Positions 3 through 17,631 of a stretch of DNA of 17,631 bases are shown here, piece after piece (positions within the stretch are counted from its first letter, which is position 1; every line of letters begins with the position of its first letter). This DNA is from Candidatus Bathyarchaeota archaeon. GTDB lineage: Archaea; Thermoproteota; Bathyarchaeia; Bathyarchaeales; Bathycorpusculaceae. The notes beneath the pieces were generated by a model that made no database searches, was not told where the DNA came from, and saw only the letters and a program-made list of their open reading frames with translations. The DNA is taken from positions 1 through 17,631 of the forward strand of contig CAVZKL010000003.1 of assembly GCA_963775895.1 (NCBI GenBank), in the 5' to 3' direction. The position numbers and the translations under genes are program-made.

Positions 3-872
3 GACAGCGTCCCAGGTTTCAAGCAGAGTCTCGACAATGCCGAGGCCGAGTTGAAACTGGCAATCTACAACGGCACGAGCCTATGGGACTCAGGCTTCAC
101 CATGGAATTGGCATACAACAGCGGAAACGACATTAGAAAAATAGCCTGCACCATGATGGCTGCATTCTTCACGCAACTGCAGACCTACAATGGCAGAACG
201 GGACACGGCTTCATAGTCCAAGTGAAAGAGGAACTTTGGGACCTATTCTTAGCAGAGCAGAGGGCACATAAACTGCCAATGTACGACGTAGGATGGCTAG
301 CTGACTTTGCAGACGCGGACGATTTCGTTCGCCCCTACATGTACAGCGCAGGAAACTACGCGTTCGGACAGAGATACACGGCCGCAAACGGTTGGGGCTC
401 ACTGAAAGACGTTCTCATCGATCAAGCAGTGTTAACCCCGGACGGGCCGGCAAGACAGGCAATATACCAACAGCTCCAACTGATCTACTACAACGACTGC
501 CCAAGCGTTCCAATCAATAACCCAAGAGGCAGAATATGGGAATGGTACTGGGTTAAAGGATACTACTACGATGCAGTGTACCCAGGCAGATTCTACTACG
601 TCCATTGGAAGCAGGATAACCCATGGTACGACATCAGCGGTAGCACAGCAGGGATCTCAGACAGCGTTGTCAACATGAAGGACATCGCCTACCTGATCGC
701 CAAGTTCAACGCTAAAGCACCAGTTCCAGGCCTGCCGACAGATCCGAAGTGGCAAGGAAACTACGGTGCAAACGGCGGAGTTGATCCGTATGGAGACCGC
801 GTCTCCAACATGAAAGACATCGCAGGTGCCATCCAAAACTTCAACGCACACGGTGGCTCAGGCCATCCATAA
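3..872 (+). CDS. oppA: ABC transporter substrate-binding protein, family 5 (OppA/DppA-like), 5'-truncated, with C-terminal dockerin-like module
   Basis: The frame is open from base 3 (DSVPGFKQSLDNAEAELKL...), so 51 is not the real start. Family-5 C-terminal motifs GWLADFADADDF and RQAIYQQLQLIYYNDCPSVP; lies upstream of oppBCDF; ends with two NMKDIA repeats. Confidence 0.88.
   Translation, partial: DSVPGFKQSLDNAEAELKLAIYNGTSLWDSGFTMELAYNSGNDIRKIACTMMAAFFTQLQTYNGRTGHGFIVQVKEELWDLFLAEQRAHKLPMYDVGWLADFADADDFVRPYMYSAGNYAFGQRYTAANGWGSLKDVLIDQAVLTPDGPARQAIYQQLQLIYYNDCPSVPINNPRGRIWEWYWVKGYYYDAVYPGRFYYVHWKQDNPWYDISGSTAGISDSVVNMKDIAYLIAKFNAKAPVPGLPTDPKWQGNYGANGGVDPYGDRVSNMKDIAGAIQNFNAHGGSGHP
627..851 (+). 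other. Dockerin-like domain at the C-terminus of the substrate-binding protein
   Basis: DISGSTAGISDSVVNMKDIAYLIAKFN ... DPKW ... VDPYGDRVSNMKDIAGAIQNFN: duplicated Ca-loop plus helix, matching the clearer dockerins at 8254-8430 and 10283-10465. The first loop has an insertion. Confidence 0.8.
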
Positions 873-904
873 GCAGACAACCAGAGAACCTACAAACCTA
901 ACAT

Positions 905-914
905 CCCCTTTTTT
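905..914 (+). terminator. Archaeal oligo-T terminator candidate
   Basis: CCCCTTTTTT about 35 nt after the oppA stop; the same C-rich plus T-run pattern follows three other genes. Confidence 0.55.
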
Positions 915-996
915 CATTCTATCAAGTGTCGAAAGGACTTACACTTTTCAGGTTCAATTCTCAAAAACGTCGCTTGGCTTGATATGCAAGGACGGA

Positions 997-1052: not shown

Positions 1053-2102
1053 ATGGGACTTAGAGAGTACATAATTCGACGGTTGCTCCTACTAATCCCC
1101 ATTATGTTAGGTGTTGTTGTGCTGATTTTTGCCGTGGTCCAGTTTGTTGACCCATATCAGAGAGTGACGCTCTACCTCAGAAACCCAAGAGAAAACGACC
1201 CACTTGTGATCGCGAAATTCATTCATGCCTATGGACTGGATGCTCCAGTATATGTACAATTCTACGATTGGATTGTTTCGATGCTGCAAGGAAATTTCGG
1301 ATATTCTGCATACTATAGGGAGATGGTGTTGCCTGGTTTACTGTCAAGAGTCCCAGCCACCCTCGAGATCGTGCTGTTTTCTGCTCCGATAGTAATATTG
1401 GTTGGAATTTGGCTCGGCGTCAAGTCTGCAGTGCAGAAGGACAAACCGTTTGATCAACTGACGAGGATCTTATCAATACTCGGTACGTCTTTGCCATCAT
1501 TTTTCTTTGGAATTGTGCTTTCAGCGATTTTCATAGCACAGTTGAGATGGGTCACCTCTGGGAGGCTCACGCCGATTATGGGGACAGCATGGTCCCTCAT
1601 GAAGAATGCGAATACGTGGCACGTCTACACGGGTCTACTAACGGTGGATTCGCTTCTGAACGGCAGACTTGACTATTTTGTCGATGCACTAGAACATTTG
1701 ATCCTTCCAGTCACGGTCCTGGTGTTTATTCAAACCGCCGTACTAGTAAGAGTGACACGTTCAAGTATGCTTGAAGCTCTGAGCAAAACATACATTACAG
1801 CGGCAAGAGCAAAGGGGCTTTCAAGGAACGAGGTAATATACAAACACGCAAGGAGAAACGCGTTGATTCCTGTAGTGACGATTTCAGGTCTTCTTGTGGG
1901 AGGAATGATGACAGGGCTCGTGATTACCGAAACCGTGTTTCTATTTCCAGGCATAGGGCAATGGGCTGCAACGGCGGCACAGAACTTCGACGTGTCGGTA
2001 GTAATCATCTACGCTCTTTTTTCCGCAGCCATTTTCGTGCTCGCCAATCTGATTGTGGACGTACTATACGCTTACATAGATCCTAGAATCCGCTTGGGAT
2101 GA
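1053..2102 (+). CDS. oppB: Oligopeptide/dipeptide ABC transporter permease (OppB/DppB)
   Basis: N-terminal YIIRRLL, GLDAPVYVQFYDW..GNFGYS, EAA-like YITAARAKGL, HARRNALIP, C-terminal YAYIDPRIR. Confidence 0.95.
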   Translation: MGLREYIIRRLLLLIPIMLGVVVLIFAVVQFVDPYQRVTLYLRNPRENDPLVIAKFIHAYGLDAPVYVQFYDWIVSMLQGNFGYSAYYREMVLPGLLSRVPATLEIVLFSAPIVILVGIWLGVKSAVQKDKPFDQLTRILSILGTSLPSFFFGIVLSAIFIAQLRWVTSGRLTPIMGTAWSLMKNANTWHVYTGLLTVDSLLNGRLDYFVDALEHLILPVTVLVFIQTAVLVRVTRSSMLEALSKTYITAARAKGLSRNEVIYKHARRNALIPVVTISGLLVGGMMTGLVITETVFLFPGIGQWAATAAQNFDVSVVIIYALFSAAIFVLANLIVDVLYAYIDPRIRLG

Positions 2103-5279: not shown

Positions 5280-5330
5280 TCGAATTTCTCCATGCTTGCT
5301 TCTGGATGGACGAGAGGGCATAGAAGATTA

Positions 5331-5346
5331 TTCCGTAATCCTTAAA
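5331..5346 (+). promoter_or_regulatory. BRE/TATA-like promoter motif TTCCnnAAnnCTTAAA, copy 1
   Basis: TTCCGTAATCCTTAAA, 68 nt before ATG 5399, followed by a purine-rich leader (AAGGAGAAGGGAG). Confidence 0.7.
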
Positions 5347-5398
5347 TCAGCAGACAGCAGTGTTTCATATTGCAAATAAGGAGAAGGGAGAAAGAAAG

Positions 5399-7319
5399 AT
5401 GAACAAATTTAGCAAAGTCTCTAGCTATGTGCTTATCGCTATGCTACTACTAGGCGTATTCTTCGTCGCAGCACCAGGAGTCAAAGCAGCAGCCAACAAT
5501 GATGTCCGTCGTCAACCCACTTGATGGTACGAACAACTTCTTCTTCACAACATCACAGAAGAATGTAGGAGACACTTTCGACATAAACATAACAATCACC
5601 GACGTTGCAGAGCTGTCCGGTTGGCAAGCAGGTATCAGCTGGGATCCATCGCTTCTAGACTTCGTTTGCCTTTAATCTTCCAGCAGACAACGTGTTCGCA
5701 TACGGCGGACCCATACCCGCCTGATTCTAGTCGTGCCAGGGTATATCGTGGGAGGTGCAAACCTCGGTGCAAGTGCTACGCACAACTTCACTGGCTCAGG
5801 AACACTCGGTGTCCTGACTCTGAAGATAATCCAAGCGGTCGGGTAAATCCCACCGACCAGCGTTGCATGCCCACTTGCATTCCAAAGCATCGGGTCAGAC
5901 ACATTCCTGTTGAGCGGGCTTGGCGGCCATTCCGTTCACGCCTGTCAGCGGAGCTTTCCAGTACTATTGGGTGCAACCGCCCAACGTTCCAAAACTGTAC
6001 ATGGTTCCATCGCTGATAAAGCCAGCCAAGAATAGGTGACACGTTCTCAGTCTCCATCTACACGGACAATGTCTACGCAGGCTGGGAAATAACTGCGTTC
6101 CAGTTCAGCATCATGTGGAACACCACACTGATTGACCAGCGGCGATCCATATCTTTGCAAACGGAACTTTCCTTGAAACATTCCGGTATGCAGCACCACC
6201 AGGCGGCGTCATCTACGCAGAAGACCTCAACACTCACATTCGTGTACCACCACTGAGCCCCATTCCAGCCGACTACAACTACTCAATAGTCGGTGAACTT
6301 CTGCTGCCAGACTTCGCACCACCGTACAACGGTACATATCACGCACCGTATTCCAAGCGGTGGAGGACTACTCGGCACATTCTACTTCACTGCCCTACTG
6401 GACACGCTTTCACCGACCATAATCACTTCTTCAATAGACTTCATCGCTGAAGACGTCCTCGCACTGAACCACTACAACACCAACATAGGATTCACGAACT
6501 CTCACAGGCGCTGCTTATCAGGCGCCGCAGAAAGTGCTGGGCGTGTCAATAGACCTGTACACGCAGTATCCATACCCATACGGCGGACAAGGCGGAAACC
6601 AGACGAGCGACAGCTTCGGTCCACAGCAGTTGGTTCAACTGTTCGCACTGGTCACTTACAACGAGTTCCCAGTACAACAGAAGCTTGTGGGCTACCAGAT
6701 ACACCACGTAGCAACCGCAGACGGAACGATCTACGACTTCGCGAGAGAGGGCACAACGGACGCTGACGGCATCGCAGAGGTTGACTTCAGGCTTCCGTGG
6801 CCATGCGCAGACCCAGTCGGACAGATATTCGGCTGGTGGTACGTCAACGCAACAGTCGATGTTGCTGGACAGACCGTTGTTGACAACCTAAGATTCTGGG
6901 TATGGTGGCCCGTTCAAGTCGTAAGTGTCGAACCGAAATTCACCAGCATCAACCAAACCAAGTACCAACAACACGAAGGCTCAATGAGTTTCGAAATGGT
7001 CTATCTGACATACAGCATGCAGCCACAGAACGTACTGCTCACAGGAACAGTCTACGATGAACTGGGCTTCTTCGTCGGATCAGCCTTCACGTCGGCAACC
7101 GTTTCAGATCCTGCAGCAAACTACCCACCGGACATGATGCCAGGAAACCCGACACCAGCGACGTTCACATGGGACTTCTCGATTCCACTGACAACCAACG
7201 CTGTAGTCGGTAAGGGCAAAGTGTTCGGCGACGCATTCAGCAACTGGCCATGGTACGGAGGCGTACCATACTGCCCAGAAGTCACGAACACGCAAGACTT
7301 CTACATAACGAAGCCATAG
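5399..7319 (+). CDS. Secreted protein of about 635 aa with two cohesin-like domains and a C-terminal GG-x-x-YCPE module; frameshifted in this sequence (probable sequencing errors, otherwise a pseudogene)
   Basis: Signal peptide MNKFSKVSSYVLIAMLLLGVFFVAAPGVKA. Stitching frames gives VNPLDGTNNFFFTTSQKNVGDTFDINITI..WQAGISWDPSLL..LPADNVFAYGGP..HNFTGSGTLGVLTLKIIQ..DTFLLSGL, colinear with the 8539 protein. A second cohesin-like unit (GDTFSVSI..FQFSIMWNTTLI..GGGLLGTFYF) joins the clean ORF 6501-7319. Confidence 0.8.
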
Positions 7320-7361: not shown

Positions 7362-7380
7362 AACCCTGCATGAAAGAATA

Positions 7381-7396
7381 TTCCAGAATCCTTAAA
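7381..7396 (+). promoter_or_regulatory. BRE/TATA-like promoter motif, copy 2
   Basis: TTCCAGAATCCTTAAA, 54 nt before ATG 7435; 14/16 identical to copy 1. Confidence 0.7.
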
Positions 7397-7434
7397 TCAA
7401 TAGGAGAGCAGTCATTCCTAAGAGGTACACTCAA

Positions 7435-8442
7435 ATGCAGTCGACAAGGTCATCGGTTTGGACTTCTTGCTTGATTTCATTACTCATCGTGCTTCTTTCC
7501 ACCAGCCTTGCGGTTGCAGCTCCCGTGTTGGACCTCAAGATAACATTGGATCACACTAACAGCGCCTTTAGTTTCCTCGGAAAACAAGTGTACACTGCAA
7601 ATGAAGGAATCATAATCTCCGCAAACGTAACGTTGGATGGAAACGCCTCAGCAAATCTGGCAGCAATCGAGATAGACTCCCCGAGCCTAAACTCTTTCTT
7701 GATAAGAACAGTCAAGACTGGAAACGTCTCAAAAATGTATTTTCGAGTCAAATTCCTGGACATGTACACTTGTAATCAGTACGGAAACCCGAAGACCGTC
7801 TTCAACGCTGGCGAATCAGTCTGGGTCAACTTTACTATGCAGAACATCGACACCATCACGCACACAGTCCTGGTTGGAATGTACGCCCAGGCTTCAGATA
7901 ACACACCCTTATACGCCTACTATCCTGACGCTGAAAACGTCAGTGCCGGGTCCACGATTCAGCATCTTGCGTCACTGCCTACACCACCCGACGCTCCCAC
8001 AGGTCAGGCAGAGGTCTTCATGAGTCTTTTCACAGATTTCCCAGTGAACGGCGGATACGCATACTGTCCAGAACAGGCTGCAAACTTTTCAATCGGAACA
8101 TCGACGCCCGCAATGCCCCCACAACCAGACTACGTTAACATGACCTTTAATTTGCCGAAGAGAAACGTGAAACTTGGAAACTACACCGTTCATGCAGCCA
8201 CAAACTTCGAGGTGCTGCAAACCAGAACCGACACCAAACAGTTTATGGTGATATTGCTAGGAGACATCAACAACGACCACGTCATAAACATGAAAGACAT
8301 CGCATTCTGCGTCTCACTCTTTCAAACCACGCCGAGCTCCCCAAACTGGAACGCGGCGGCGGATGTGAACAAGGACGGAGTAGTTAACATGCGCGATATT
8401 GGAATGCTCGTTTCGTTCTTCACGTTCAGTGCGATCCCCTAA
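7435..8442 (+). CDS. Secreted beta-rich protein with GG-x-x-YCPE module and C-terminal dockerin
   Basis: Signal peptide ending SLAVA; FPVNGGYAYCPE; C-terminal GDINNDHVINMKDIAFCVSLF..PNWNAAADVNKDGVVNMRDIGMLVSFF. Confidence 0.88.
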   Translation: MQSTRSSVWTSCLISLLIVLLSTSLAVAAPVLDLKITLDHTNSAFSFLGKQVYTANEGIIISANVTLDGNASANLAAIEIDSPSLNSFLIRTVKTGNVSKMYFRVKFLDMYTCNQYGNPKTVFNAGESVWVNFTMQNIDTITHTVLVGMYAQASDNTPLYAYYPDAENVSAGSTIQHLASLPTPPDAPTGQAEVFMSLFTDFPVNGGYAYCPEQAANFSIGTSTPAMPPQPDYVNMTFNLPKRNVKLGNYTVHAATNFEVLQTRTDTKQFMVILLGDINNDHVINMKDIAFCVSLFQTTPSSPNWNAAADVNKDGVVNMRDIGMLVSFFTFSAIP

Positions 8443-8468: not shown

Positions 8469-8484
8469 TTCCAGAACACTTAAA
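8469..8484 (+). promoter_or_regulatory. BRE/TATA-like promoter motif, copy 3
   Basis: TTCCAGAACACTTAAA, 70 nt before TTG 8539; purine-rich leader like that at 5378-5398. Confidence 0.7.
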
Positions 8485-8538
8485 TGGTTAAACAAACAGC
8501 TTCTTCTATTAACGAAAGGAGAAAGGGAAGAGGAGAAT

Positions 8539-10468
8539 TTGAAAAAGTTTTGTAAACCTCTATGCTTTGCAATTCATTGCGTTGCTCTGCGTGGAAATGA
8601 TGATTTTAGCTGTGGCTCCTGCACACGCTGCTTCGACTACCATGGAACTGGTCAACCCGATTGACGGAACAAACGCGTTCAACTTCACAAGCGCCCAGAA
8701 AAGCGTGGGAGACACCTTCGACATAAACATAACCATCGCAAATGTTGCAGACCTGTCCTCTTGGCAGGTTGGGGTCAGCTATGATCCGACACTTCTTAAC
8801 TTCACCAGTTTCGTGCTGCCCCCGGACAACGTGCTCGCGTACGGTGGACCAATATCAACCTATTCCGTTGCTCCAGGATATTTCGTCGGTGGTGCATCAC
8901 TCGGCCCGAGTGCCACACACAATTTCACTGGTTCGGGAAGGCTCGCAGTTCTGACACTGAAAATAATCCAAGGAGTCTCATCGAGCGGCCCCAGACAGGT
9001 TCAGTGTAACATAGCCTTCGAGAATCTGGGAACAGACACTTTTCTGCTGAGCGGACTTGCTTCACTGGATTTCACAACAGTCAATGCACACTACACCTAC
9101 ACGGCACCGCCTCCGCCACCAGCGATTCTGTACATTAATCCCGCGAAAATCGTGGACCCAACGCTCACACCAGGCGCTCAATTCAACACAAGCTTGAGCA
9201 TAGGAAACGCAACTGACCTCAACCAGTGGAGCGCAGACATTCTGTACGATAACACTATACTAAACGCGACTGGCGTGGAGGAAGGTGATTTTCTGAAATC
9301 CTTGAACTCGACAACCTTCAGCTTCACGATTCAGCAAAACTATAACGCCACGAACGGCTTGATCCAATTGAGTTGCACACTGTCGTCAGGTGGGGCAAAC
9401 GGAAACGGAAACCTATCAACGATCACCTTCCAAGTTATCGGCTTGGGTCAAACCGCAATCAAAATAGTCAACGCCTCCCTGCTGGACCCATCAAGCTTGA
9501 CTCTCCCATTCAACACCGCAGACGGCTACTTCAACAACATCCTCATGGCAAAACTGAGCGTTGACCCGCCTGAAGTCACGGGTTCACAATACGTGCCAGG
9601 AACAACTTTCACAATCAACGTAACTCTGGAGGGCGTTGAAGACTTCAAATCGACAGTGTTCAACTTAACCTACGTCCCTTCAGTGATACAAGAGATCGCC
9701 ATCAACGTCCCATCAGTCCTCGGACAAACACCAATCAAGAAGCTTCAAGTCGACGATGTCGCCGGCTACATTTGGGTCAACGTAACCTTCCATAACGGAA
9801 TATCAACATTCACACCGGTGACACTGATGACCGTGCAGTTCGAAGTTCTTGCGATGGGCGTTAGCCCGCTGAACCTCACCGACACGCAACTATATGACGT
9901 AAACAATAACCCGATAACGCACGACGTACAACACGGAATCTTCATAGGCATCATCCGCCACGTTGCGGTTACAGACGTCATAACAGACCTTCAGATCGCC
10001 TATCAAGGCTGGAACGTAATGGTCAACGTGACGGTGAAGAACAAGGGAAACATGACTGAAACATTCGACGTTCACTTCTACTTCGACAGCAACCTCGGCG
10101 GAACCATGATCGTCAACAACCTCGTTCCGGGCGAAGAAAGAGTCATACCCATGATATGGAACACGTCGACGGTGCAACCCTCCATAAGCCACAACTACAC
10201 CATCTCAGGCCTAGCCGATCCAGCACCGTTCCAAACAGACCTGTCAGACATCAATTTCACGGATGGAACCGTAAACATACGCGTCTTGGGAGACGTGAAC
10301 GGCGACGGAAAAGTGGACATAAAAGACATAGCTCAACTCGTACAAGTGTTCCACACTTTTCCAGGCAAACCGAACTGGAATCCCCTGTTCGACTTGGACA
10401 GGAACGGCGTCATAGACATGCGTGACATAGCGATTTGCGTCATGAACTTCGGAAAGAGCGCTCCGTAA
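8539..10468 (+). CDS. Scaffoldin-like secreted protein: 3 cohesin-like domains, CARDB/Ig-like domain and C-terminal dockerin
   Basis: Cohesin-like units at about 8640-9100, 9122-9540 and 9548-9955; APPPPP linker 9104-9121; CARDB-like VAVTDV..VNVTVKNKG..ETFDV..WNT; dockerin GDVNGDGKVDIKDIA..PNWNPLFDLDRNGVIDMRDIA. Likely start is TTG 8539 after AGGAG with one extra base before 8573 (MKKFCKPLCFAFIALL...); the ORF track starts at 8567. Confidence 0.88.
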
Positions 10469-10589: not shown

Positions 10590-12149
10590 ATGAAGTTGCG
10601 ATCCATCAAAAGAATCGCCGTGGCGTTGATCATAGTTCAACTCTTCACTGTCTCTGTCTTAACGGCGCGTGGCGCCGAGGCACAGGCTCAGAGGACGCTG
10701 AGAATTGTTGACGATGCCACCGGATCAGACCATGTAAACCTCGGAAATGAGACTCAGCCAATACAACAGGGAGGCTATCCGTTCGCAGTAAGAGTATTGC
10801 TCGACGGAGCAACAACCGGCGTCGCGTTCTGGCAGGTGACAGTCACCTTTGACAACAACTCAATGAGATGCACAAACGTTCTAATCCCTGAAACAAACCC
10901 TTCCTACATCTTTTTCGGAAAGCAGGAAGTCTCGACTGTTGACATGCGTAATGAGACTCAGGACGCCGTGTACGGAGGTCAACCATCCGTTGTGGCTGCC
11001 GGTGGACTGGTCTTTATTGACCAGCCAGCGAACGTGACCAACAGTGCAATTCTCTGTATAATGAATTTCACAGCTCGGAAAACAGGGAACTTCACCTTGT
11101 CCCTTATCGGAGTCAAAGACTACTCAGCCACATTTATACTGGACCCCACGAACACACCTATATCTCAAGGGGGCCAGTCTTACACAACTGCACCTTTCTC
11201 AGTGAGCGTTTTTGGAGCGGCCTCGAAACCAGTTGCTGCTTTCACTGTTTCGCCACAAAACCCCAAAGCGAACCAAGTCGTTACCTTCGACGCGTCTTCA
11301 AGCTACGATCCCGGTGGCGAGTCAATTCAAACCTACAAGTGGGATTTCGGCGACAACACCACGACAACAAAAAATGGCACTCAGCCACGACTGAACCACA
11401 CATACTCAGTGAATGGGCTCTACCTGGTTAACCTGACAGTTGCGAACACTGACAACCTCACAGGTTCAACGATCATGCAGTTGCAGATTGGCTCAACACC
11501 AACCGTGGCCTTCGCATACTCTCCGTCAGGCATAATACTGCCCAACGACCAAGTGACTTTCAACGCGTCGGAAAGTGCGGCTCAGAATTCGACGATAATC
11601 TCTTACCTGTGGGATTTTGGCGATAATTCGACAGTCGCCGCAAACGACACGGTCGTAACTCATAGGTATTCGAAGAGGGGCGTCTATAACGTGAGCCTGA
11701 CTGTTACGGATAACGACGGCCTATTCAACTCGACAGTCATCGAGCTGCAAATAGGAAAACCACCATCGCCATTGTTTACCTGGACACCGCAATTTCCTTT
11801 TGTTGAAGACAACGTGACCTTCACCGCACAAGCGACTCCTGATACTGGAGTATCAATCACAGCATACATTTGGGATTTCGGTGAAGTCGCTGGGCCTGAA
11901 AATGGTAGTGCCATCATGATTCATCCTTATGTCTCCGAAGACAATTACATAGTCACCTTAAAGGTCTACGACAGCGATGGACTGCATACCTCGTACAACC
12001 AAACCGTCCCCGTGGCCAGCAGGGCGGGTCAAGGACAGAAGGTCAACTACACGAATCAGATCCTTGCAGCGCTTGTCGTGGTGCTAATCGCAGTGGCACT
12101 CGTCATTAGAAGACGAAACAGAAAGAAAGAAGAAGTATTAGAAATCTAG
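10590..12149 (+). CDS. Membrane-anchored surface protein: N-terminal cohesin-like domain, 3 PKD domains, C-terminal TM helix
   Basis: Signal peptide; WQVTVTFDN..ILCIMNFTARKTG..TFILDP (cohesin-like, weaker match); PKD motifs YKWDFGD, YLWDFGD, YIWDFGE; tail ILAALVVVLIAVALVI-RRRNRKK. Confidence 0.85.
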   Translation: MKLRSIKRIAVALIIVQLFTVSVLTARGAEAQAQRTLRIVDDATGSDHVNLGNETQPIQQGGYPFAVRVLLDGATTGVAFWQVTVTFDNNSMRCTNVLIPETNPSYIFFGKQEVSTVDMRNETQDAVYGGQPSVVAAGGLVFIDQPANVTNSAILCIMNFTARKTGNFTLSLIGVKDYSATFILDPTNTPISQGGQSYTTAPFSVSVFGAASKPVAAFTVSPQNPKANQVVTFDASSSYDPGGESIQTYKWDFGDNTTTTKNGTQPRLNHTYSVNGLYLVNLTVANTDNLTGSTIMQLQIGSTPTVAFAYSPSGIILPNDQVTFNASESAAQNSTIISYLWDFGDNSTVAANDTVVTHRYSKRGVYNVSLTVTDNDGLFNSTVIELQIGKPPSPLFTWTPQFPFVEDNVTFTAQATPDTGVSITAYIWDFGEVAGPENGSAIMIHPYVSEDNYIVTLKVYDSDGLHTSYNQTVPVASRAGQGQKVNYTNQILAALVVVLIAVALVIRRRNRKKEEVLEI

Positions 12150-12232: not shown

Positions 12233-13280
12233 ATGAAAGTTGAAAAACAACTAGTCTTACTGCTAATCTTGTCAGCCGCACTTACTACAATGTTCCTCGC
12301 ATCTTTCGCCAGCACAGTTCGATCAGCTCCTGCACAAACAGCAAAAATGATAATCCAACCGGCAAAGCCATCGGACATCACCTTCTACGCGAACTACACA
12401 ACGCTACCTGCCACAATCACATTCAACATAAGCGTCGTCAACGTAACCAACCTAGGTTCATGGCAAGTCGGAGTGCAATATGACAAAAACGTACTGAACT
12501 ACAGCAGCATTTCACTCCCAGCAGACAATGTCTTCGCCGGCCAATAGCCCGTAATAGCAGGTCCAGACCTGTCGGTATGCAGGACTGGTCATATACGGTG
12601 CGGGTGCCGGCCCCTCGCAGCCAGGTTTCAACGGAAACGGGGTGCTTGCTCAGATCACGCTGAGTGTAAATGCGTCAGACACTGTCCCTACGTCCTCAAC
12701 GATCGGGTTCGAAGGACTATCAACGGACACGTTTCTTTTCACACTTGGTCTCACAGACATTCCTTTCACTCCAGTGACAGCGACGTTCAACTACACTTAT
12801 GACACGCAGGGAACTGTAGTGACTCACACCATAACAGGCACGAACAATCTTGTAGTGACATCCTCTAACGCGACGATTGCTCCGAACTCTGCAGGAATCG
12901 ACACGACGAACAAAGTGATATCGTTCAATGTAACGGGCAACCCAGGCAATACTTCATATCTCTTCATACAACTGCCAATGGACGTGATAAATGTCACGAA
13001 TATGAACGACTGGAAGCTGACGCTGAACGGAGTGCTCGTCTACAATGCCAGTGCATCACTGGACGCCACAGTGAACGGTGTCGTCATACAACCCCAGATA
13101 ACTGCAAACGCCACGTACACGGACGTATACATTCCGCAGTTTGCGTTCGCCAGCCAAGTCACATTCGGAACTCAAGGAGACAATATCATACCAGAACTGT
13201 CGAACGTGCTAATCGTAATGCTCATAGTGTCTTCAGTAACAGTAGCCATCGTGAAAGGCAAGACTAGAAAGAAACTATAG
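12233..13280 (+). CDS. Single-cohesin surface protein of about 348 aa with PEF-CTERM-like (IPEL) sorting tail; split by an in-frame TAG (12545-12547) and a +1 shift (about 12578)
   Basis: Joins track ORFs 12224-12547 and 12642-13280: WQVGVQYDKNVL..LPADNVFAGQ*PVIAGPDLSV/AGLVIYGAGAGPSQPGFNGNGVLAQITL..DTFL is colinear with the other cohesins. Ends IIPELSNVLIVMLIVSSVTVAIVKGKTRKKL. AGGTG at 12222-12226 precedes ATG 12233. Confidence 0.8.
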
Positions 13281-14271: not shown

Positions 14272-15594
14272 TCAATCAGCAGGACAACACCAGTACCTTG
14301 ACAAACGAGCTTTTTCTTGCCGCTCCGATGAAAATGCAACACGCGGATGACCACTAATCAGAATGCTCAGGAAAAGAGTGACCACAAGAAAGATTGCTGC
14401 CAAGGCCAAAGGGCTCAACTCTGGGAACACAGTCGTCCCCGTTATCTGAATCTCACCTTCTTCCATCCCACTGTAACTGAAATATAGGTAGGTGTTTTCC
14501 GCGTCTACCATGCATAGATATTGAAGTGATGTCGAACCATTTTGCTGAAATTGAACAATCCAATCAATGGTTTTTTCGCACGACAACAAATCCTTCGGAA
14601 TCTGTACTCTTGACACACTCGTGGGTCCTTGGATAGGTGTTACAAAGAGATCCAGACTCCTCTCTGAAGCGTCAAACGCCACTCTGGTCACGGTCGAGTT
14701 TGTTGATGCTTGAACATTGAATTCCCCTTCAGGAACCTGAACGTCCATGTTCGTGATGGGGTTTGCGAGAGGATAATTGTCAAAAGAAAAGCCTTGGTCA
14801 AAGATGCCGTCGCTTCCACTTTGGTCCTGACCACTTCCACTCTTGAAGTCGCTACCGAGATAATCACTCCAATAATTTCCTCCTGAAGGATAACCATCGT
14901 CAAAATAGTTGATCCCACCAGGAGAATAGGCCTGAATAGTGTTGTTCTCAAAGTTGTTGTGGTACATCCTGTTGAACTGAGAAGCCGTATCTGCAAACAC
15001 TATTCCGCGGCTACTGTTCAGTATAGTGTTTCCAACGACGACGTTGTCACTGCTTCCTTCCCGCAAATTGATTCCCATTGAACTGCATCCAGAAACTCTG
15101 CATCGGCCTATTTCTGTGAAGTTTGAAGAGCGAATCTCAACTCCGCATCCAGCGGTTTTAGCAGTAACATTCAGCACTCTTGCACCCGTAACACCGTAGA
15201 ATCGGACGGCAGGAGCTTGAACAAACGGGTCCATGCTGGTATTCTGCAAGGTCAAGTTCTCTATCAGAACGTTGTCCGCAACGACTTGAAACAGAACTTG
15301 AGCCTCTCCGCCTCCATCCACAACCGTGCCGTCAGCACTCTGTCCAACGATAGAAACGGTCGTATTGACAACTATCATAGATTGAGCGTAAAGACCGTTC
15401 TTGACGAGTATCGTGTCCCCGGCCGATGCCGTGTTCACTGCCTGAGCTATTGATTGGCCAGGCTGCACGACGATGATTCCGCCTGAGCCGAACACGACAC
15501 TTTTTGACCAATGTAGCCACGCAACTGATGCAATCATAATAAAAAACAGAACGAGTAGAGTGCTTGCACGCCGGAGGGTCTTTGACTTAGCCAT
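14272..15594 (-). CDS. Surface protein with right-handed parallel beta-helix (NosD/CASH-like, pectin-lyase fold) and PEF-CTERM-like (FPEL) tail
   Basis: SIAQAVNTASAGDTILVKNGLY; repeated N-x-I/V-x-x-N strands; YHNNFENN; GGNYWSDY..GSDGIFD..DNYPL; then IPKDLL..W..NTYLYFSY..ITGTTVFPEL plus a hydrophobic helix. Confidence 0.85.
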   Translation of the reverse strand: MAKSKTLRRASTLLVLFFIMIASVAWLHWSKSVVFGSGGIIVVQPGQSIAQAVNTASAGDTILVKNGLYAQSMIVVNTTVSIVGQSADGTVVDGGGEAQVLFQVVADNVLIENLTLQNTSMDPFVQAPAVRFYGVTGARVLNVTAKTAGCGVEIRSSNFTEIGRCRVSGCSSMGINLREGSSDNVVVGNTILNSSRGIVFADTASQFNRMYHNNFENNTIQAYSPGGINYFDDGYPSGGNYWSDYLGSDFKSGSGQDQSGSDGIFDQGFSFDNYPLANPITNMDVQVPEGEFNVQASTNSTVTRVAFDASERSLDLFVTPIQGPTSVSRVQIPKDLLSCEKTIDWIVQFQQNGSTSLQYLCMVDAENTYLYFSYSGMEEGEIQITGTTVFPELSPLALAAIFLVVTLFLSILISGHPRVAFSSERQEKARLSRYWCCPAD

Positions 15595-15733
15595 GGCCTA
15601 TCTCTCTTTTCAACATTCAAATAGACTTTGTTGCAAATAAACATAGGGTGCAAAATCAAAAACACGATCGAATGCATCACTAATCAAGAATCCGCTCTTT
15701 TTCCATATTGGACTTTTTTCGTATAGAAGTCTG

Positions 15734-15749
15734 TTCCATAACCCTTAAA
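15734..15749 (+). promoter_or_regulatory. BRE/TATA-like promoter motif, copy 4
   Basis: TTCCATAACCCTTAAA, 58 nt before ATG 15792; GAGGAGGGAG ribosome-binding site at 15781-15790. Confidence 0.65.
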
Positions 15750-15791
15750 AAGTCACCTAGAGATAAAACTATTGCGCGAGGAGGAGGGAGA

Positions 15792-17631
15792 ATGCCAAAG
15801 CTACGAACGATCATCCTAGTCATAGCTTTGATAGCAGTTTTCTCGGCACTGGCAGGACTGATCCATGCCGAAAGCTCGTATCAACCTCCCGTCGCATCCT
15901 TCACTTATTCACCAGACATTCCTGGTCCGCAGGATCTAATTGTCTTCAACGCGTCGAGCAGCTATTCTCCTAATGGGTATATTGTGCAATATACTTGGGA
16001 CTTTGGAGACGGTAACGTTTCAACGGTGAGCGACCCCTCGATAATGCACACATACTTCGTTGATGGTGATTACACGGTTCAGCTCACAGTCACCGACAAT
16101 GTCGGATACACTGCTGATGCCGTGGCAATCGTGCCAGTCAGATGTGTCGTTTTCTTCAGAGTTGTGATTCTTGGTACGACGATCCCGGTGGGAAACTTGA
16201 AGGTGACAGCTTATTACTATAATGGGAGCGCATGGGTCGTTGCTCCAGCCAGCAATAAAGGAATCGAAATAAAATACGACAACATGACACAACCCTACCT
16301 GGCAAACACCAATGCCCAGAAAAACAGAAACCCAGGTTACACAGCTTCAATTCTATGCCGCAACGCAAGCAACATAGGTTTTGACATTCATTCAATAACA
16401 TCCCGGGAAGTCTTCTTCAAGGTCGAATGGGGTTCATGGGTCGCGTACTGGCCCAACGAAACTACTCGAGTCTACACTTACAGTCCGAATCACGGCGGTA
16501 CGGTACAGGCCCACGATTATCATCCAGGCCATCAAGCATATTGGGACCCGACTGCGTCGGCTTACGTGATAAGGGCAGGAGACATAGCGGGAGCGGGTGT
16601 AAGTCCAACTCAAAGTCATCCCATCTTACTGGGCATCTATTGCCCTCCTCCAACGCCGATATACTATTTGACCGTAAACACCAGTCCTCAGGGCGTCACA
16701 ACCATCCCCGGTCAAGGATTCTACACCGCAAACACAACTGTCACGCTAACAGCCCCAACGTACGTCAACGTCTCAACTGGTAGCAGGTACAGATTCGACT
16801 ATTGGGACATTGGTGGAGTCTCACAGGCTAGCGGCGTGAACCCGATAAACGTGCTTGTGAATGCCAACCGAACTGCAACAGCTCACTACGTGACGCAATA
16901 CTCGACGACTTTCAGCCAAGCAGGTCTATCTTCAGACGCGACGGGCACAATTGTAACGATTAATGGCGTTCCACAGACCCTGACACAAATTCCGTGCGCA
17001 TTATGGGTCGACAGCGGAAGTTCCATCACTTACTCCTACAGCTTGACAGTTTCAAGCTCAGTTTCAGGAAAACGATTCAGACTTGACACCGTATCTGGGC
17101 CTTCCTCCCCGATCACAGTGTCCAGCGCGACAACGATCGCTGGCAACTATGTAACCCAATATCTAGTCACGTTTGCTCAGACTGGCTTGGATGCTACCGC
17201 GACAGGCACGGTTGCAACGGTCAATGGCACCACGAAACTCTACGGAGATTTACCATACAGCTTATGGGTTGACACTGGAAGCTCGATTACCTACTCTTAC
17301 GGTTCAACAGTTTCAAGCTCCACTTCGGGCAAACGTTTCAGACTCGGGACAGTAAGCGGTCCAGTTTCTCCGATTTCAACCAGTGGGCCCACAAACGTAA
17401 ATGGCAACTTCATCGTTCAGTATCTGATCACGTTCACGCAAACCGGTTTGGATCCATCAGCCACCGGCAACGTTCTTACAGTTAACGGCAATCCCAACGG
17501 AATAGCCAACCTGCCACTGAATGTTTGGGTTGACAGCGGTTCACTCATCACCTATGTGTACAGCAACGCATCGAGTTCCCTTGCTGGAAATCGGTTCATC
17601 TTGACAAGTTTCACAGGACCATCCTCCCCCG
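15792..17631 (+). CDS. Large secreted protein, 3'-truncated (at least 613 aa): signal peptide, PKD domain, unknown domain, InlB-B-repeat-like unit and tandem 87-aa repeats
   Basis: Absent from the ORF track because no stop falls in the window. My translation is open throughout: MPKLRTIILVIALIAVFSALAGLIHA-ESSYQPPVASFTYSP..YTWDFGDG..YTVQLTVTDN..YYLTVNTSP..GQGFY..RYRFDYW... Confidence 0.9.
   Translation, partial: MPKLRTIILVIALIAVFSALAGLIHAESSYQPPVASFTYSPDIPGPQDLIVFNASSSYSPNGYIVQYTWDFGDGNVSTVSDPSIMHTYFVDGDYTVQLTVTDNVGYTADAVAIVPVRCVVFFRVVILGTTIPVGNLKVTAYYYNGSAWVVAPASNKGIEIKYDNMTQPYLANTNAQKNRNPGYTASILCRNASNIGFDIHSITSREVFFKVEWGSWVAYWPNETTRVYTYSPNHGGTVQAHDYHPGHQAYWDPTASAYVIRAGDIAGAGVSPTQSHPILLGIYCPPPTPIYYLTVNTSPQGVTTIPGQGFYTANTTVTLTAPTYVNVSTGSRYRFDYWDIGGVSQASGVNPINVLVNANRTATAHYVTQYSTTFSQAGLSSDATGTIVTINGVPQTLTQIPCALWVDSGSSITYSYSLTVSSSVSGKRFRLDTVSGPSSPITVSSATTIAGNYVTQYLVTFAQTGLDATATGTVATVNGTTKLYGDLPYSLWVDTGSSITYSYGSTVSSSTSGKRFRLGTVSGPVSPISTSGPTNVNGNFIVQYLITFTQTGLDPSATGNVLTVNGNPNGIANLPLNVWVDSGSLITYVYSNASSSLAGNRFILTSFTGPSSP
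16896..17631 (+). repeat. Degenerate 261-nt (87-aa) tandem coding repeat, about 2.8 copies visible
   Basis: QY units start at 16896, 17157 and 17418; consensus QYxxTFxQxGLxxxATGxxxTxNG..P..WVDxGSxITYxY..SSS..GxRFxL..GPxSP. Confidence 0.9.

What the first reader, a model, noticed from the sequence alone, without database searches (positions are those of the whole stretch)
3..872. Family-5 substrate-binding protein ending in a dockerin instead of a membrane anchor
Seen: after the binding-protein fold ends (YYVHWKQD) come two NMKDIA loop-helix repeats and a stop, with no hydrophobic tail. Known: archaeal binding proteins are usually held by a lipid, a terminal TM helix or a pilin-like N-terminus. 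Inference: this one clips onto cohesins, allowing multivalent, exchangeable display. The first Ca-loop has an insertion (DISGSTAGISD) and the linker is long (KAPVPGLPTDPKWQGNYGANGG), suggesting a distinct dockerin subtype. The N-terminus is outside the window, so another anchor cannot be excluded.
Basis: partly seen in the sequence, partly recalled or inferred. Interest (0 to 1): 0.82.

Follow-up and report, generated by a model that had tools for sequence, protein, structure and literature searches.

The report
Dockerin-tailed archaeal peptide-binding protein
The nutrient-catching protein of an ABC importer in a sediment archaeon ends in a real but divergent "dockerin" plug instead of a membrane anchor, so it is probably held at the cell surface by "cohesin" socket proteins encoded next door; a similar pairing is already reported in other archaea, and binding has not been shown for this one.

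Summary
Observation confirmed. Window 3-872 is the last 289 residues of a DppA/OppA-type (family 5) binding protein, cut by the contig start and followed by oppBCDF. Its tail (624-851) misses Pfam Dockerin_1 but folds as a dockerin, closest to type II. Full-length relatives, named Bathyarchaeia where named, have a signal-peptide-like N-terminus, no lipobox and no C-terminal helix. In related genomes dockerin, C-terminal helix and N-terminal anchor occur as alternatives and swap on the tree. Where a second dockerin is appended, the inner copy keeps calcium ligands and linker but loses the predicted recognition residues, which suggests the terminal copy binds a partner. A conserved cluster downstream encodes secreted and membrane-anchored cohesins.

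The partner cohesin and multivalent display remain inferred. This scan noted the same system in at least 8 other genomes. Verdict: new variant of a known kind.

The parts
3..602 (+). C-terminal part of a family-5 (DppA/OppA-type) substrate-binding domain; about 530 upstream residues lie beyond the contig start
   Evidence: PF00496 24.1 bits on the fragment, 101.5 on ortholog P0002; profile A1 hits HbpA/DppA structures at E 3e-23 to 6e-21; contig start
624..851 (+). Divergent dockerin, type-II-like, C-terminal
   Evidence: AlphaFold2 pLDDT 88.4; Foldseek rows 1-11 all type II dockerin chains or the scaffoldin chains that carry them; VIA rows 1-16 of 17 dockerins; hhalign 98.3%
630..701 (+). Repeat 1: calcium loop with a lineage-wide insertion (D210, D220, N224, D227) and helix 225-233
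   Evidence: insertion shared by 10 of 20 Pfam-passing dockerins of G000
711..776 (+). Long inter-repeat linker found only on these binding proteins
783..845 (+). Repeat 2: calcium loop (D261, D265, N269, D272; position 3 is Tyr, non-canonical), helix 270-278 and conserved F280-N281
1053..2102 (+). OppB/DppB-type permease
   Evidence: PF00528, PF19300
2099..3064 (+). OppC/DppC-type permease
   Evidence: PF00528, PF12911
3086..4228 (+). OppD-type ATPase
   Evidence: PF00005, PF08352
4215..5279 (+). OppF-type ATPase
   Evidence: PF00005, PF08352
5399..7319 (+). Conserved secreted scaffold: signal peptide, two cohesins, two macroglobulin-like Ig domains; no TM helix, no dockerin. In pieces in this assembly between about 5490 and 6500, probably consensus errors
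   Evidence: tblastn with the intact 638-aa G005 ortholog; PF00963; model pLDDT 91 with a type II cohesin dyad (3l8q) among its hits; the indels are contradicted by contigs of 2-3 runs
7435..8442 (+). Secreted Ig-like protein with canonical C-terminal dockerin
   Evidence: PF00404 41.6 bits; similarity to the scaffold's last domain
8567..10468 (+). Adaptor-like protein: up to three cohesins, CARDB, canonical dockerin
   Evidence: PF00963, PF07705, PF00404; three hits of my cohesin profile
10590..12149 (+). Membrane-anchored cohesin-like domain plus three PKD domains and a C-terminal TM helix
   Evidence: PKD x3; cohesin profile E 5e-7 and tail hydrophobicity 2.59
12233..13280 (+). Membrane-anchored cohesin protein with PEF-CTERM-like tail; split by one frameshift in this assembly, intact in G005

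Best explanation
The protein is the substrate-binding subunit of a peptide-type ABC importer of a Bathyarchaeia archaeon. It is exported by Sec and its signal peptide is cleaved (inferred from orthologs), so it has no membrane anchor of its own. Its C-terminal, calcium-binding, type-II-like dockerin binds a cohesin from the conserved cluster downstream (inferred), either a membrane-anchored cohesin directly or the secreted two-cohesin scaffold or adaptor. This keeps it near the OppBCDF permease, to which it delivers substrate, most likely peptides (inferred from DppA/HbpA similarity). Several paralogs with the same plug, most of them without their own permease genes, could share the sockets. 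Shown here: fold, gene context, lack of other anchors in orthologs, anchor exclusivity, selective loss of recognition residues in redundant copies. Not shown: cleavage, calcium binding, binding, partner, substrate.
For: Dockerin fold. Of 120 listed homologs, 0 have a hydrophobic C-terminal segment and 88 a hydrophobic N-terminal one; of those 88, 86 have a small-x-small motif after it, 0 a lipobox Cys at the border, 0 Tat, 1 a pilin-like match. Of 46 related SBP sequences from fetched loci, 33 end in a dockerin, 2 in a TM helix without dockerin, 6 end at the core and carry an N-terminal anchor-type segment, 5 are cut or frameshifted; swaps occur both ways on starred branches. 0 of 11 inner dockerins (followed by a second dockerin) keep both M[KR]D motifs against 85 of 112 terminal ones; at 60-70% core identity, pairs of inner copies are 0.20 identical at 12 predicted recognition positions against 0.63 for terminal pairs, while calcium ligands (0.86/0.86) and linker (0.93/0.84) hold. 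The scaffold gene lies near the SBP in 7 of 13 genomes whose flanks I examined and TM-anchored cohesins in 8 of 13. All 14 genomes with a dockerin-tailed SBP have Pfam cohesins. One RNA run has contigs over the SBP, scaffold, adaptor and one anchored cohesin gene.
Against: The window's own N-terminus was not recovered. Signal-peptide calls are hydrophobicity and regex checks, not SignalP; the small-x-small motif is common by chance; 32 of 120 homologs lack a hydrophobic N-terminus (by eye mostly partial gene calls). The tail fails Pfam Dockerin_1, no Foldseek row reaches E 0.001 (best 5.7e-3) and the best VIA Z is 6.6; loop position 3 is non-canonical in both repeats. 39 of 61 relatives have cohesins, so co-occurrence is weak, and kin are not independent. 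Inner copies share derived residues and may be one origin (the core tree needs 4 changes, 3 forced); recognition positions follow canonical numbering (recalled) but were fixed after I had seen the column table; the dockerin profile was built from terminal copies. The scaffold was not found in 6 of 13 flanks. Two homologs are labelled Patescibacteria.
Confidence: 0.7

Rival explanations
1. The N-terminal hydrophobic segment is not cleaved and anchors the protein; the dockerin only positions it or recruits a cohesin-bearing partner.
For: Cleavage is only inferred; h-regions are long and strongly hydrophobic (2.0-2.8); the window's N-terminus is missing.
Against: Relatives that do look N-anchored have a different N-terminus (KAIG-type in 4 of 6) and no dockerin, and the one dockerin-bearing member nested in that clade has an ordinary signal-peptide-like N-terminus. 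Two relatives replace the dockerin by a C-terminal TM helix, which would be redundant with an N-terminal anchor.
Confidence: 0.12
2. The tail is a dockerin-derived structural cap that packs on the binding domain and no longer binds cohesin; the protein is soluble and held only by the surface layer.
For: The long linker and aromatic residues are SBP-specific and stay conserved even in inner copies; the tail follows the core with almost no flexible spacer; Pfam Dockerin_1 is not met.
Against: Predicted recognition residues are conserved in terminal copies and drift only when a second dockerin is present; other clades of the same SBP family carry canonical dockerins at the same place.
Confidence: 0.1
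3. The dockerin binds something other than a cohesin of this cluster: a non-cohesin surface protein, itself, or a cohesin encoded elsewhere or by a partner cell.
For: The genome has 15 Pfam cohesin matches at E<=0.1, most outside the window; PMC9012536 raises cell-cell roles for ANME dockerins; the scaffold is absent from 6 of 13 flanks examined.
Against: The SBP, permease, scaffold and anchored cohesins stay clustered across several genera; type-II-like dockerin and type-II-like cohesin hits go together.
Confidence: 0.08

Closest known systems
Dockerin-bearing NikA/OppA-type binding proteins of ANME archaea (Chadwick et al. 2022, PMC9012536; passages and S4 Data rows seen)
   Same: Family-5 SBP fused to a dockerin in an archaeon with multi-cohesin proteins; 30 PF00496 rows in the supplement of dockerin/cohesin proteins. 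Annotation only in the passages read.
   Different: In the two ANME proteins I traced the dockerin is N-terminal (residues 29-75 and 32-80, PF00496 from 131/133). Here it is C-terminal, below Pfam detection, with a long linker, in another phylum, and beside a conserved cohesin cluster.
Type II cohesin-dockerin anchoring of clostridial scaffoldins (PDB 4wi0, 5k39, 2b59, 3kcp, 2y3n)
   Same: Best fold and profile matches of the tail; same logic of tethering a secreted protein to a surface-anchored cohesin (established knowledge).
   Different: No X module before the dockerin; cargo is a transport receptor, not a scaffoldin with glycoside hydrolases; anchors are TM or PEF-CTERM-like tails rather than SLH domains.
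DppA/HbpA/OppA family-5 binding proteins (PDB 1dpp, 3m8u, 6ofq)
   Same: Core fold and oppBCDF gene context.
   Different: About 810 aa with insertions and a dockerin tail, against about 510-540 aa; substrate unknown.
Archaeal SBPs with class III (pilin-like) signal peptides, Sulfolobus bindosome (PMC2910488; passages seen)
   Same: Surface display of binding proteins by a dedicated system; relatives of this SBP without a dockerin have a similar N-terminus (motif recalled).
   Different: This protein's orthologs lack the class III motif (1 spurious match of 88).

Membership tests
Family-5 SBP (PF00496) of an Opp/Dpp importer | PF00496 above the curated cut-off | tested here: met
   Ortholog P0002 101.5 bits, colinear 196-643; the window fragment alone scores 24.1 of 32.4
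Family-5 SBP (PF00496) of an Opp/Dpp importer | Adjacent two permeases and two ATPases of Opp/Dpp type | tested here: met
Family-5 SBP (PF00496) of an Opp/Dpp importer | Binds peptides (rather than nickel, heme or sugars) | not testable with these tools
   Top PDB matches are HbpA and DppA; needs ligand assays
Dockerin | Two calcium-loop/helix repeats with Asp/Asn at loop positions 1, 5, 9, 12 (numbering recalled) | tested here: met
   position 3 is Ser and Tyr, non-canonical
Dockerin | Dockerin fold | tested here: met
   Foldseek probability 1.00, TMq 0.57, rmsd 2.1 to 4wi0_B, E 5.7e-3; VIA Z 6.6, rmsd 1.9 over 55 residues to 2ozn_B
Dockerin | Pfam PF00404 above cut-off | tested here: not met
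   No hit at E<=0.1; NCBIfam NF041540 25 of 29 bits
Dockerin | Calcium-dependent binding to a cohesin | not testable with these tools
   Needs pull-down, ITC or SPR
Type II (X-dockerin) anchoring module | Closest structural class is type II | tested here: met
   VIA's best row is a C. perfringens dockerin, type II rows follow at Z 5.3 and 5.0
Type II (X-dockerin) anchoring module | X module directly before the dockerin | tested here: not met
   The dockerin starts within 10 residues of the SBP core end; some relatives have an extra domain there, CARDB in one tested
ANME SBP-dockerin fusions | N-terminal dockerin before PF00496 | tested here: not met
   C-terminal here; N-terminal in the 2 ANME proteins traced
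Cellulosome | Scaffoldin with several cohesins | tested here: met
   Proteins with 2 and up to 3 cohesins in the window
Cellulosome | Dockerin-bearing glycoside hydrolases and a cellulose-binding module | not tested
   None among the 14 window proteins scanned; dockerin proteins elsewhere in the genome were not scanned
PEF-CTERM/archaeosortase anchoring (for 12233-13280) | TIGR03024 above cut-off and a sortase in the genome | tested here: inconclusive
   2 of 11 proteins scanned match TIGR03024 under cut-off, the window's own does not match; PF09721 over cut-off in G000; 9 such tails in G000
S-layer protein (for the scaffold 5399-7319) | Forms a 2D lattice; major surface protein | tested here: inconclusive
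   Generic Ig-fold hits including an archaeal S-layer (7ptp) at TMq 0.19; no lattice test

The most novel reading that the evidence does not exclude
These Bathyarchaeia build a cellulosome-like surface array for uptake rather than hydrolysis: the conserved anchor-less two-cohesin/two-Ig scaffold forms or joins the outer protein layer, and several paralogous binding proteins plug into it through an SBP-specific dockerin subtype, feeding one shared permease.
Probability: 0.2. Interest if true: 0.8.

Novelty: new variant of a known kind. Interest (0 to 1): 0.5.

Why it matters
Archaeal cohesins and dockerins have been known for years without a demonstrated role (PMC5244752 and PMC9012536 passages). 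This locus offers a small, defined test: an 80-residue plug, a handful of candidate sockets in the same cluster, natural swaps between plug and membrane anchor, and natural mutants that point to the binding residues. If true it is a further way to keep a transport receptor at an archaeal surface, in an abundant sediment lineage, and it shows that Pfam misses this dockerin subtype.

Tried and rejected
Co-folding the window's tail (alignment A2) with the two cohesins of the G005 scaffold ortholog (alignment A3) gave no verdict: score 0.02 against a mark of 0.32, controls not run. It is not evidence either way; only one pairing could be run, across two species, and the anchored cohesins were not tried. 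Single-sequence PDB search with the tail: 0 hits at E<=10. Recovering the window's N-terminus failed: no other contig overlaps the C3 start; laid contigs run past it (one RNA record of 1403 letters, one DNA record by 14 letters) but their letters are not given. The RNA run shows no cover over oppBCDF, 7435-8442 or 10590-12149, which contigs cannot turn into a claim of silence or level. The Atlas search on the scaffold's C-terminal half gave unnamed or Ig/MG clusters, best 0.90; Foldseek on the whole scaffold gave generic Ig-repeat hits. The long-linker form was not found at E<=1e-14 in 400 other genomes of the class, only one of them from this genus; it was found in 2 of 10 same-genus genomes. 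Peer et al. 2009 could not be read. Rejected: the first-loop insertion as an SBP marker; a lipobox (6 loose regex matches drop to 0 at the h/c border); real pseudogenisation of the scaffold.

Full report
1. Observation. The frame at 3-872 encodes 289 residues and begins at the first bases of contig C3 of a 1.77-Mb, 28-contig genome. No 19-residue window exceeds 0.77 on the Kyte-Doolittle scale. The first 200 residues are the end of a family-5 binding domain (PF00496, 24.1 bits as a fragment). Downstream lie two permeases and two ATPases of Opp/Dpp type. Homologs that carry a source name are Bathyarchaeia (3 of the SBP list, 2 of the scaffold list); two are labelled Patescibacteria, which I did not resolve. 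Public runs holding this DNA are wetland and freshwater-sediment metagenomes.

2. The tail is a dockerin. Pfam Dockerin_1 does not hit it. An AlphaFold2 model from 109 sequences has pLDDT 88.4 with two helices. Foldseek's first 11 rows are type II dockerin chains or the scaffoldin chains that carry them (best 4wi0_B, E 5.7e-3, probability 1.00, TMq 0.57; none at E<=0.001). VIA-align returns 17 rows, the first 16 dockerins (best Z 6.6). A profile of 11 full-length orthologs hits four type II dockerin chains by sequence at E 1.4e-5 to 1.4e-4, and the tail profile aligns to 10 canonical dockerins of this genome at 98.3%. Loop positions 1, 5, 9 and 12 (numbering recalled) are Asp/Asn in both repeats and conserved; position 3 is not canonical.

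3. Subtype. The first-loop insertion is shared by 10 of the 20 dockerins of this genome that pass the Pfam cut-off, mostly on other proteins. The long linker is specific: of 73 library hits, 31 have it, 27 of these on an SBP core and 4 in fragments too short to tell; one more SBP row missed my pattern; the other 41 have neither. It is narrow in range: G000, G005 and G006 among 61 relatives, and none of 400 other class genomes at E<=1e-14. Other clades of the same SBP family carry more canonical dockerins at the same place.

4. The missing N-terminus. A same-genus genome (G005) has the whole cluster in the same order with an 813-aa ortholog, 64% identical, whose N-terminus looks like a Sec signal peptide without Cys. 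Of the 120 homologs listed (167 found), none has a hydrophobic C-terminal segment and 88 have a hydrophobic N-terminal one (the middle of that output was cut, the totals were printed). Of the 88, 86 have a small-x-small motif, 0 a lipobox Cys at the border, 0 a Tat motif, 1 a pilin-like match in an over-long gene call. These are simple checks, not SignalP.

5. Anchors are alternatives. Of 46 distinct related SBP sequences in the fetched loci, labelled by hand, 33 end in a dockerin, 2 in a TM helix with no dockerin, 6 stop at the core, and 5 are cut or frameshifted. Of the 6, 4 have a KAIG-type pilin-like start, 1 a similar KAVS start and 1 a plain hydrophobic start. In a tree of 44 cores (2 short, dockerin-bearing rows left out) a dockerin form sits inside the N-anchored clade and TM forms sit inside dockerin clades, on starred branches.

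6. A natural test of the binding face. Eleven sequences (9 homologs, 2 paralogs of this genome) continue past this dockerin into further domains, in several cases a cohesin, and end in a second, more canonical dockerin; for one paralog this is read across a frameshift. None of the 11 inner copies keeps both M[KR]D motifs, against 85 of 112 terminal copies; one truncated sequence was set aside. Inner copies keep D210, D220, D227, D261, D265, D272 and most of the linker in 11 of 11 but vary at 225-226 and 270-271 and lose the F-N-H end. At matched core identity of 60-70%, inner pairs are 0.20 identical at 12 predicted recognition positions and terminal pairs 0.63, whereas calcium ligands and linker do not drop. 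Caveats: possibly one origin, positions fixed, related sequences.

7. Sockets next door. After oppF come a secreted two-cohesin scaffold (5399-7319), a dockerin protein, an adaptor with up to three cohesins and a dockerin, and two membrane-anchored cohesin proteins. The scaffold is frameshifted in this assembly, but contigs from two or three runs disagree at each of the 12 listed indels, so these are probably consensus errors; two of the SBP paralogs are frameshifted likewise. The scaffold is near the SBP in 7 of 13 genomes whose flanks I examined and anchored cohesins in 8 of 13; several misses are short contigs. All 14 genomes with a dockerin-tailed SBP have cohesins, but so do 39 of 61 relatives. 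G005 has six long-linker SBPs, only one beside permease genes in the flanks fetched; G000 has four. One RNA run has contigs over 1-877, 5372-7278, 8747-10215 and 12257-12539; contigs cannot give level, start or strand. The scaffold model has four beta-sandwich domains, with a type II cohesin dyad among its hits and macroglobulin-like C-terminal domains; it has no TM helix or dockerin, so its own anchoring is unexplained.

8. Mechanism. Most likely (0.7): Sec export and cleavage, then calcium-dependent docking on a cluster cohesin that holds the receptor near OppBCDF. The fold, context and comparative patterns are shown; cleavage, binding, partner and substrate are inferred. Rivals: uncleaved N-terminal anchor (0.12), structural cap (0.10), other partner (0.08).

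9. Prior knowledge. PMC9012536 (passages; S4 Data rows) states that NikA/OppA- and TroA-type binding proteins are common dockerin carriers in ANME and calls for experiments; its supplement has 30 PF00496 rows, and in two proteins traced the dockerin is N-terminal. PMC5244752 (passages) says the function outside cellulosomes is unknown. PMC2910488 (passages) covers class III SBPs. bioRxiv 10.1101/2024.05.28.596244 (one passage) reports predicted S-layer proteins in Bathyarchaeia and has no mention of cohesin or dockerin in its main text; its supplements were closed and may name the protein. Peer et al. 2009 was not available and may already list such fusions. Searches listed no title on Bathyarchaeia cohesin-dockerin systems; apart from the papers named I saw only listings, and subscription journals are mostly missing. 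Earlier notes of this scan describe the same design in at least 8 other genomes; they are unchecked and not used as support.

10. Verdict. Real feature; new variant of a known kind (C-terminal, Pfam-cryptic, SBP-specific long-linker dockerin with a conserved cohesin cluster). Interest 0.5: not surprising to someone who knows the ANME report, but it makes the role of archaeal cohesin-dockerin pairs directly testable.

Noticed in passing
window 5399-7319; L026:11721-13634: Conserved secreted two-cohesin, two-Ig protein with a near-invariant Cys pair (C469, C623 in P0122), no anchor and no dockerin; 92 homologs found, most unnamed. Candidate surface-layer or scaffold subunit. TM-anchored proteins with its C-terminal domains occur nearby in G008 and G001.
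   Followed up: partly
window 5318-5349, 7368-7399, about 8480-8500, 15721-15752; L026 upstream of 4763: Shared upstream motif (TTCC-N-AA, then a TATA-like box) before the scaffold, dockerin, adaptor and last genes and before the G005 SBP; oppB and 10590 have a different GGCAAG-plus-TATA motif. Possibly two promoter classes.
   Followed up: partly
window 885-925: T-rich stretch after the SBP stop, and a separate TATA-like box before oppB, suggest the SBP is transcribed apart from the permease; one RNA contig ends at 877.
   Followed up: no
G000 C18 and C20; P0119, P0071: SBP paralogs with their own cohesin and a second dockerin (SBP-dockerin-cohesin-linker domain-dockerin), which could chain.
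   Followed up: partly
G000 C19:60110-61405 minus strand: A dockerin followed by a second kind of binding-protein domain that looks tungstate/molybdate-type by eye; not scanned.
   Followed up: no
G000 C14:8155-28916: A second large cluster of cohesin and dockerin proteins, some with kelch-like repeats and dockerins with different residues at positions 10-11, perhaps a separate specificity class.
   Followed up: no
G000 C28:58542-58787 (L068); nine ORF ends: Exosortase/archaeosortase-family gene and nine PEF-CTERM-like tails, two or more on cohesin proteins.
   Followed up: partly
window 14272-15594 (minus) and 15708-17630: NosD-like beta-helix protein with a PEF-like tail, and a PKD protein with long repeats cut by the contig end.
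   Followed up: no
window 5400-6500: Laid contigs differ from the window by about 3% here against under 1% over the SBP and permease genes, so this part of the assembly is error-rich or strain-variable.
   Followed up: partly
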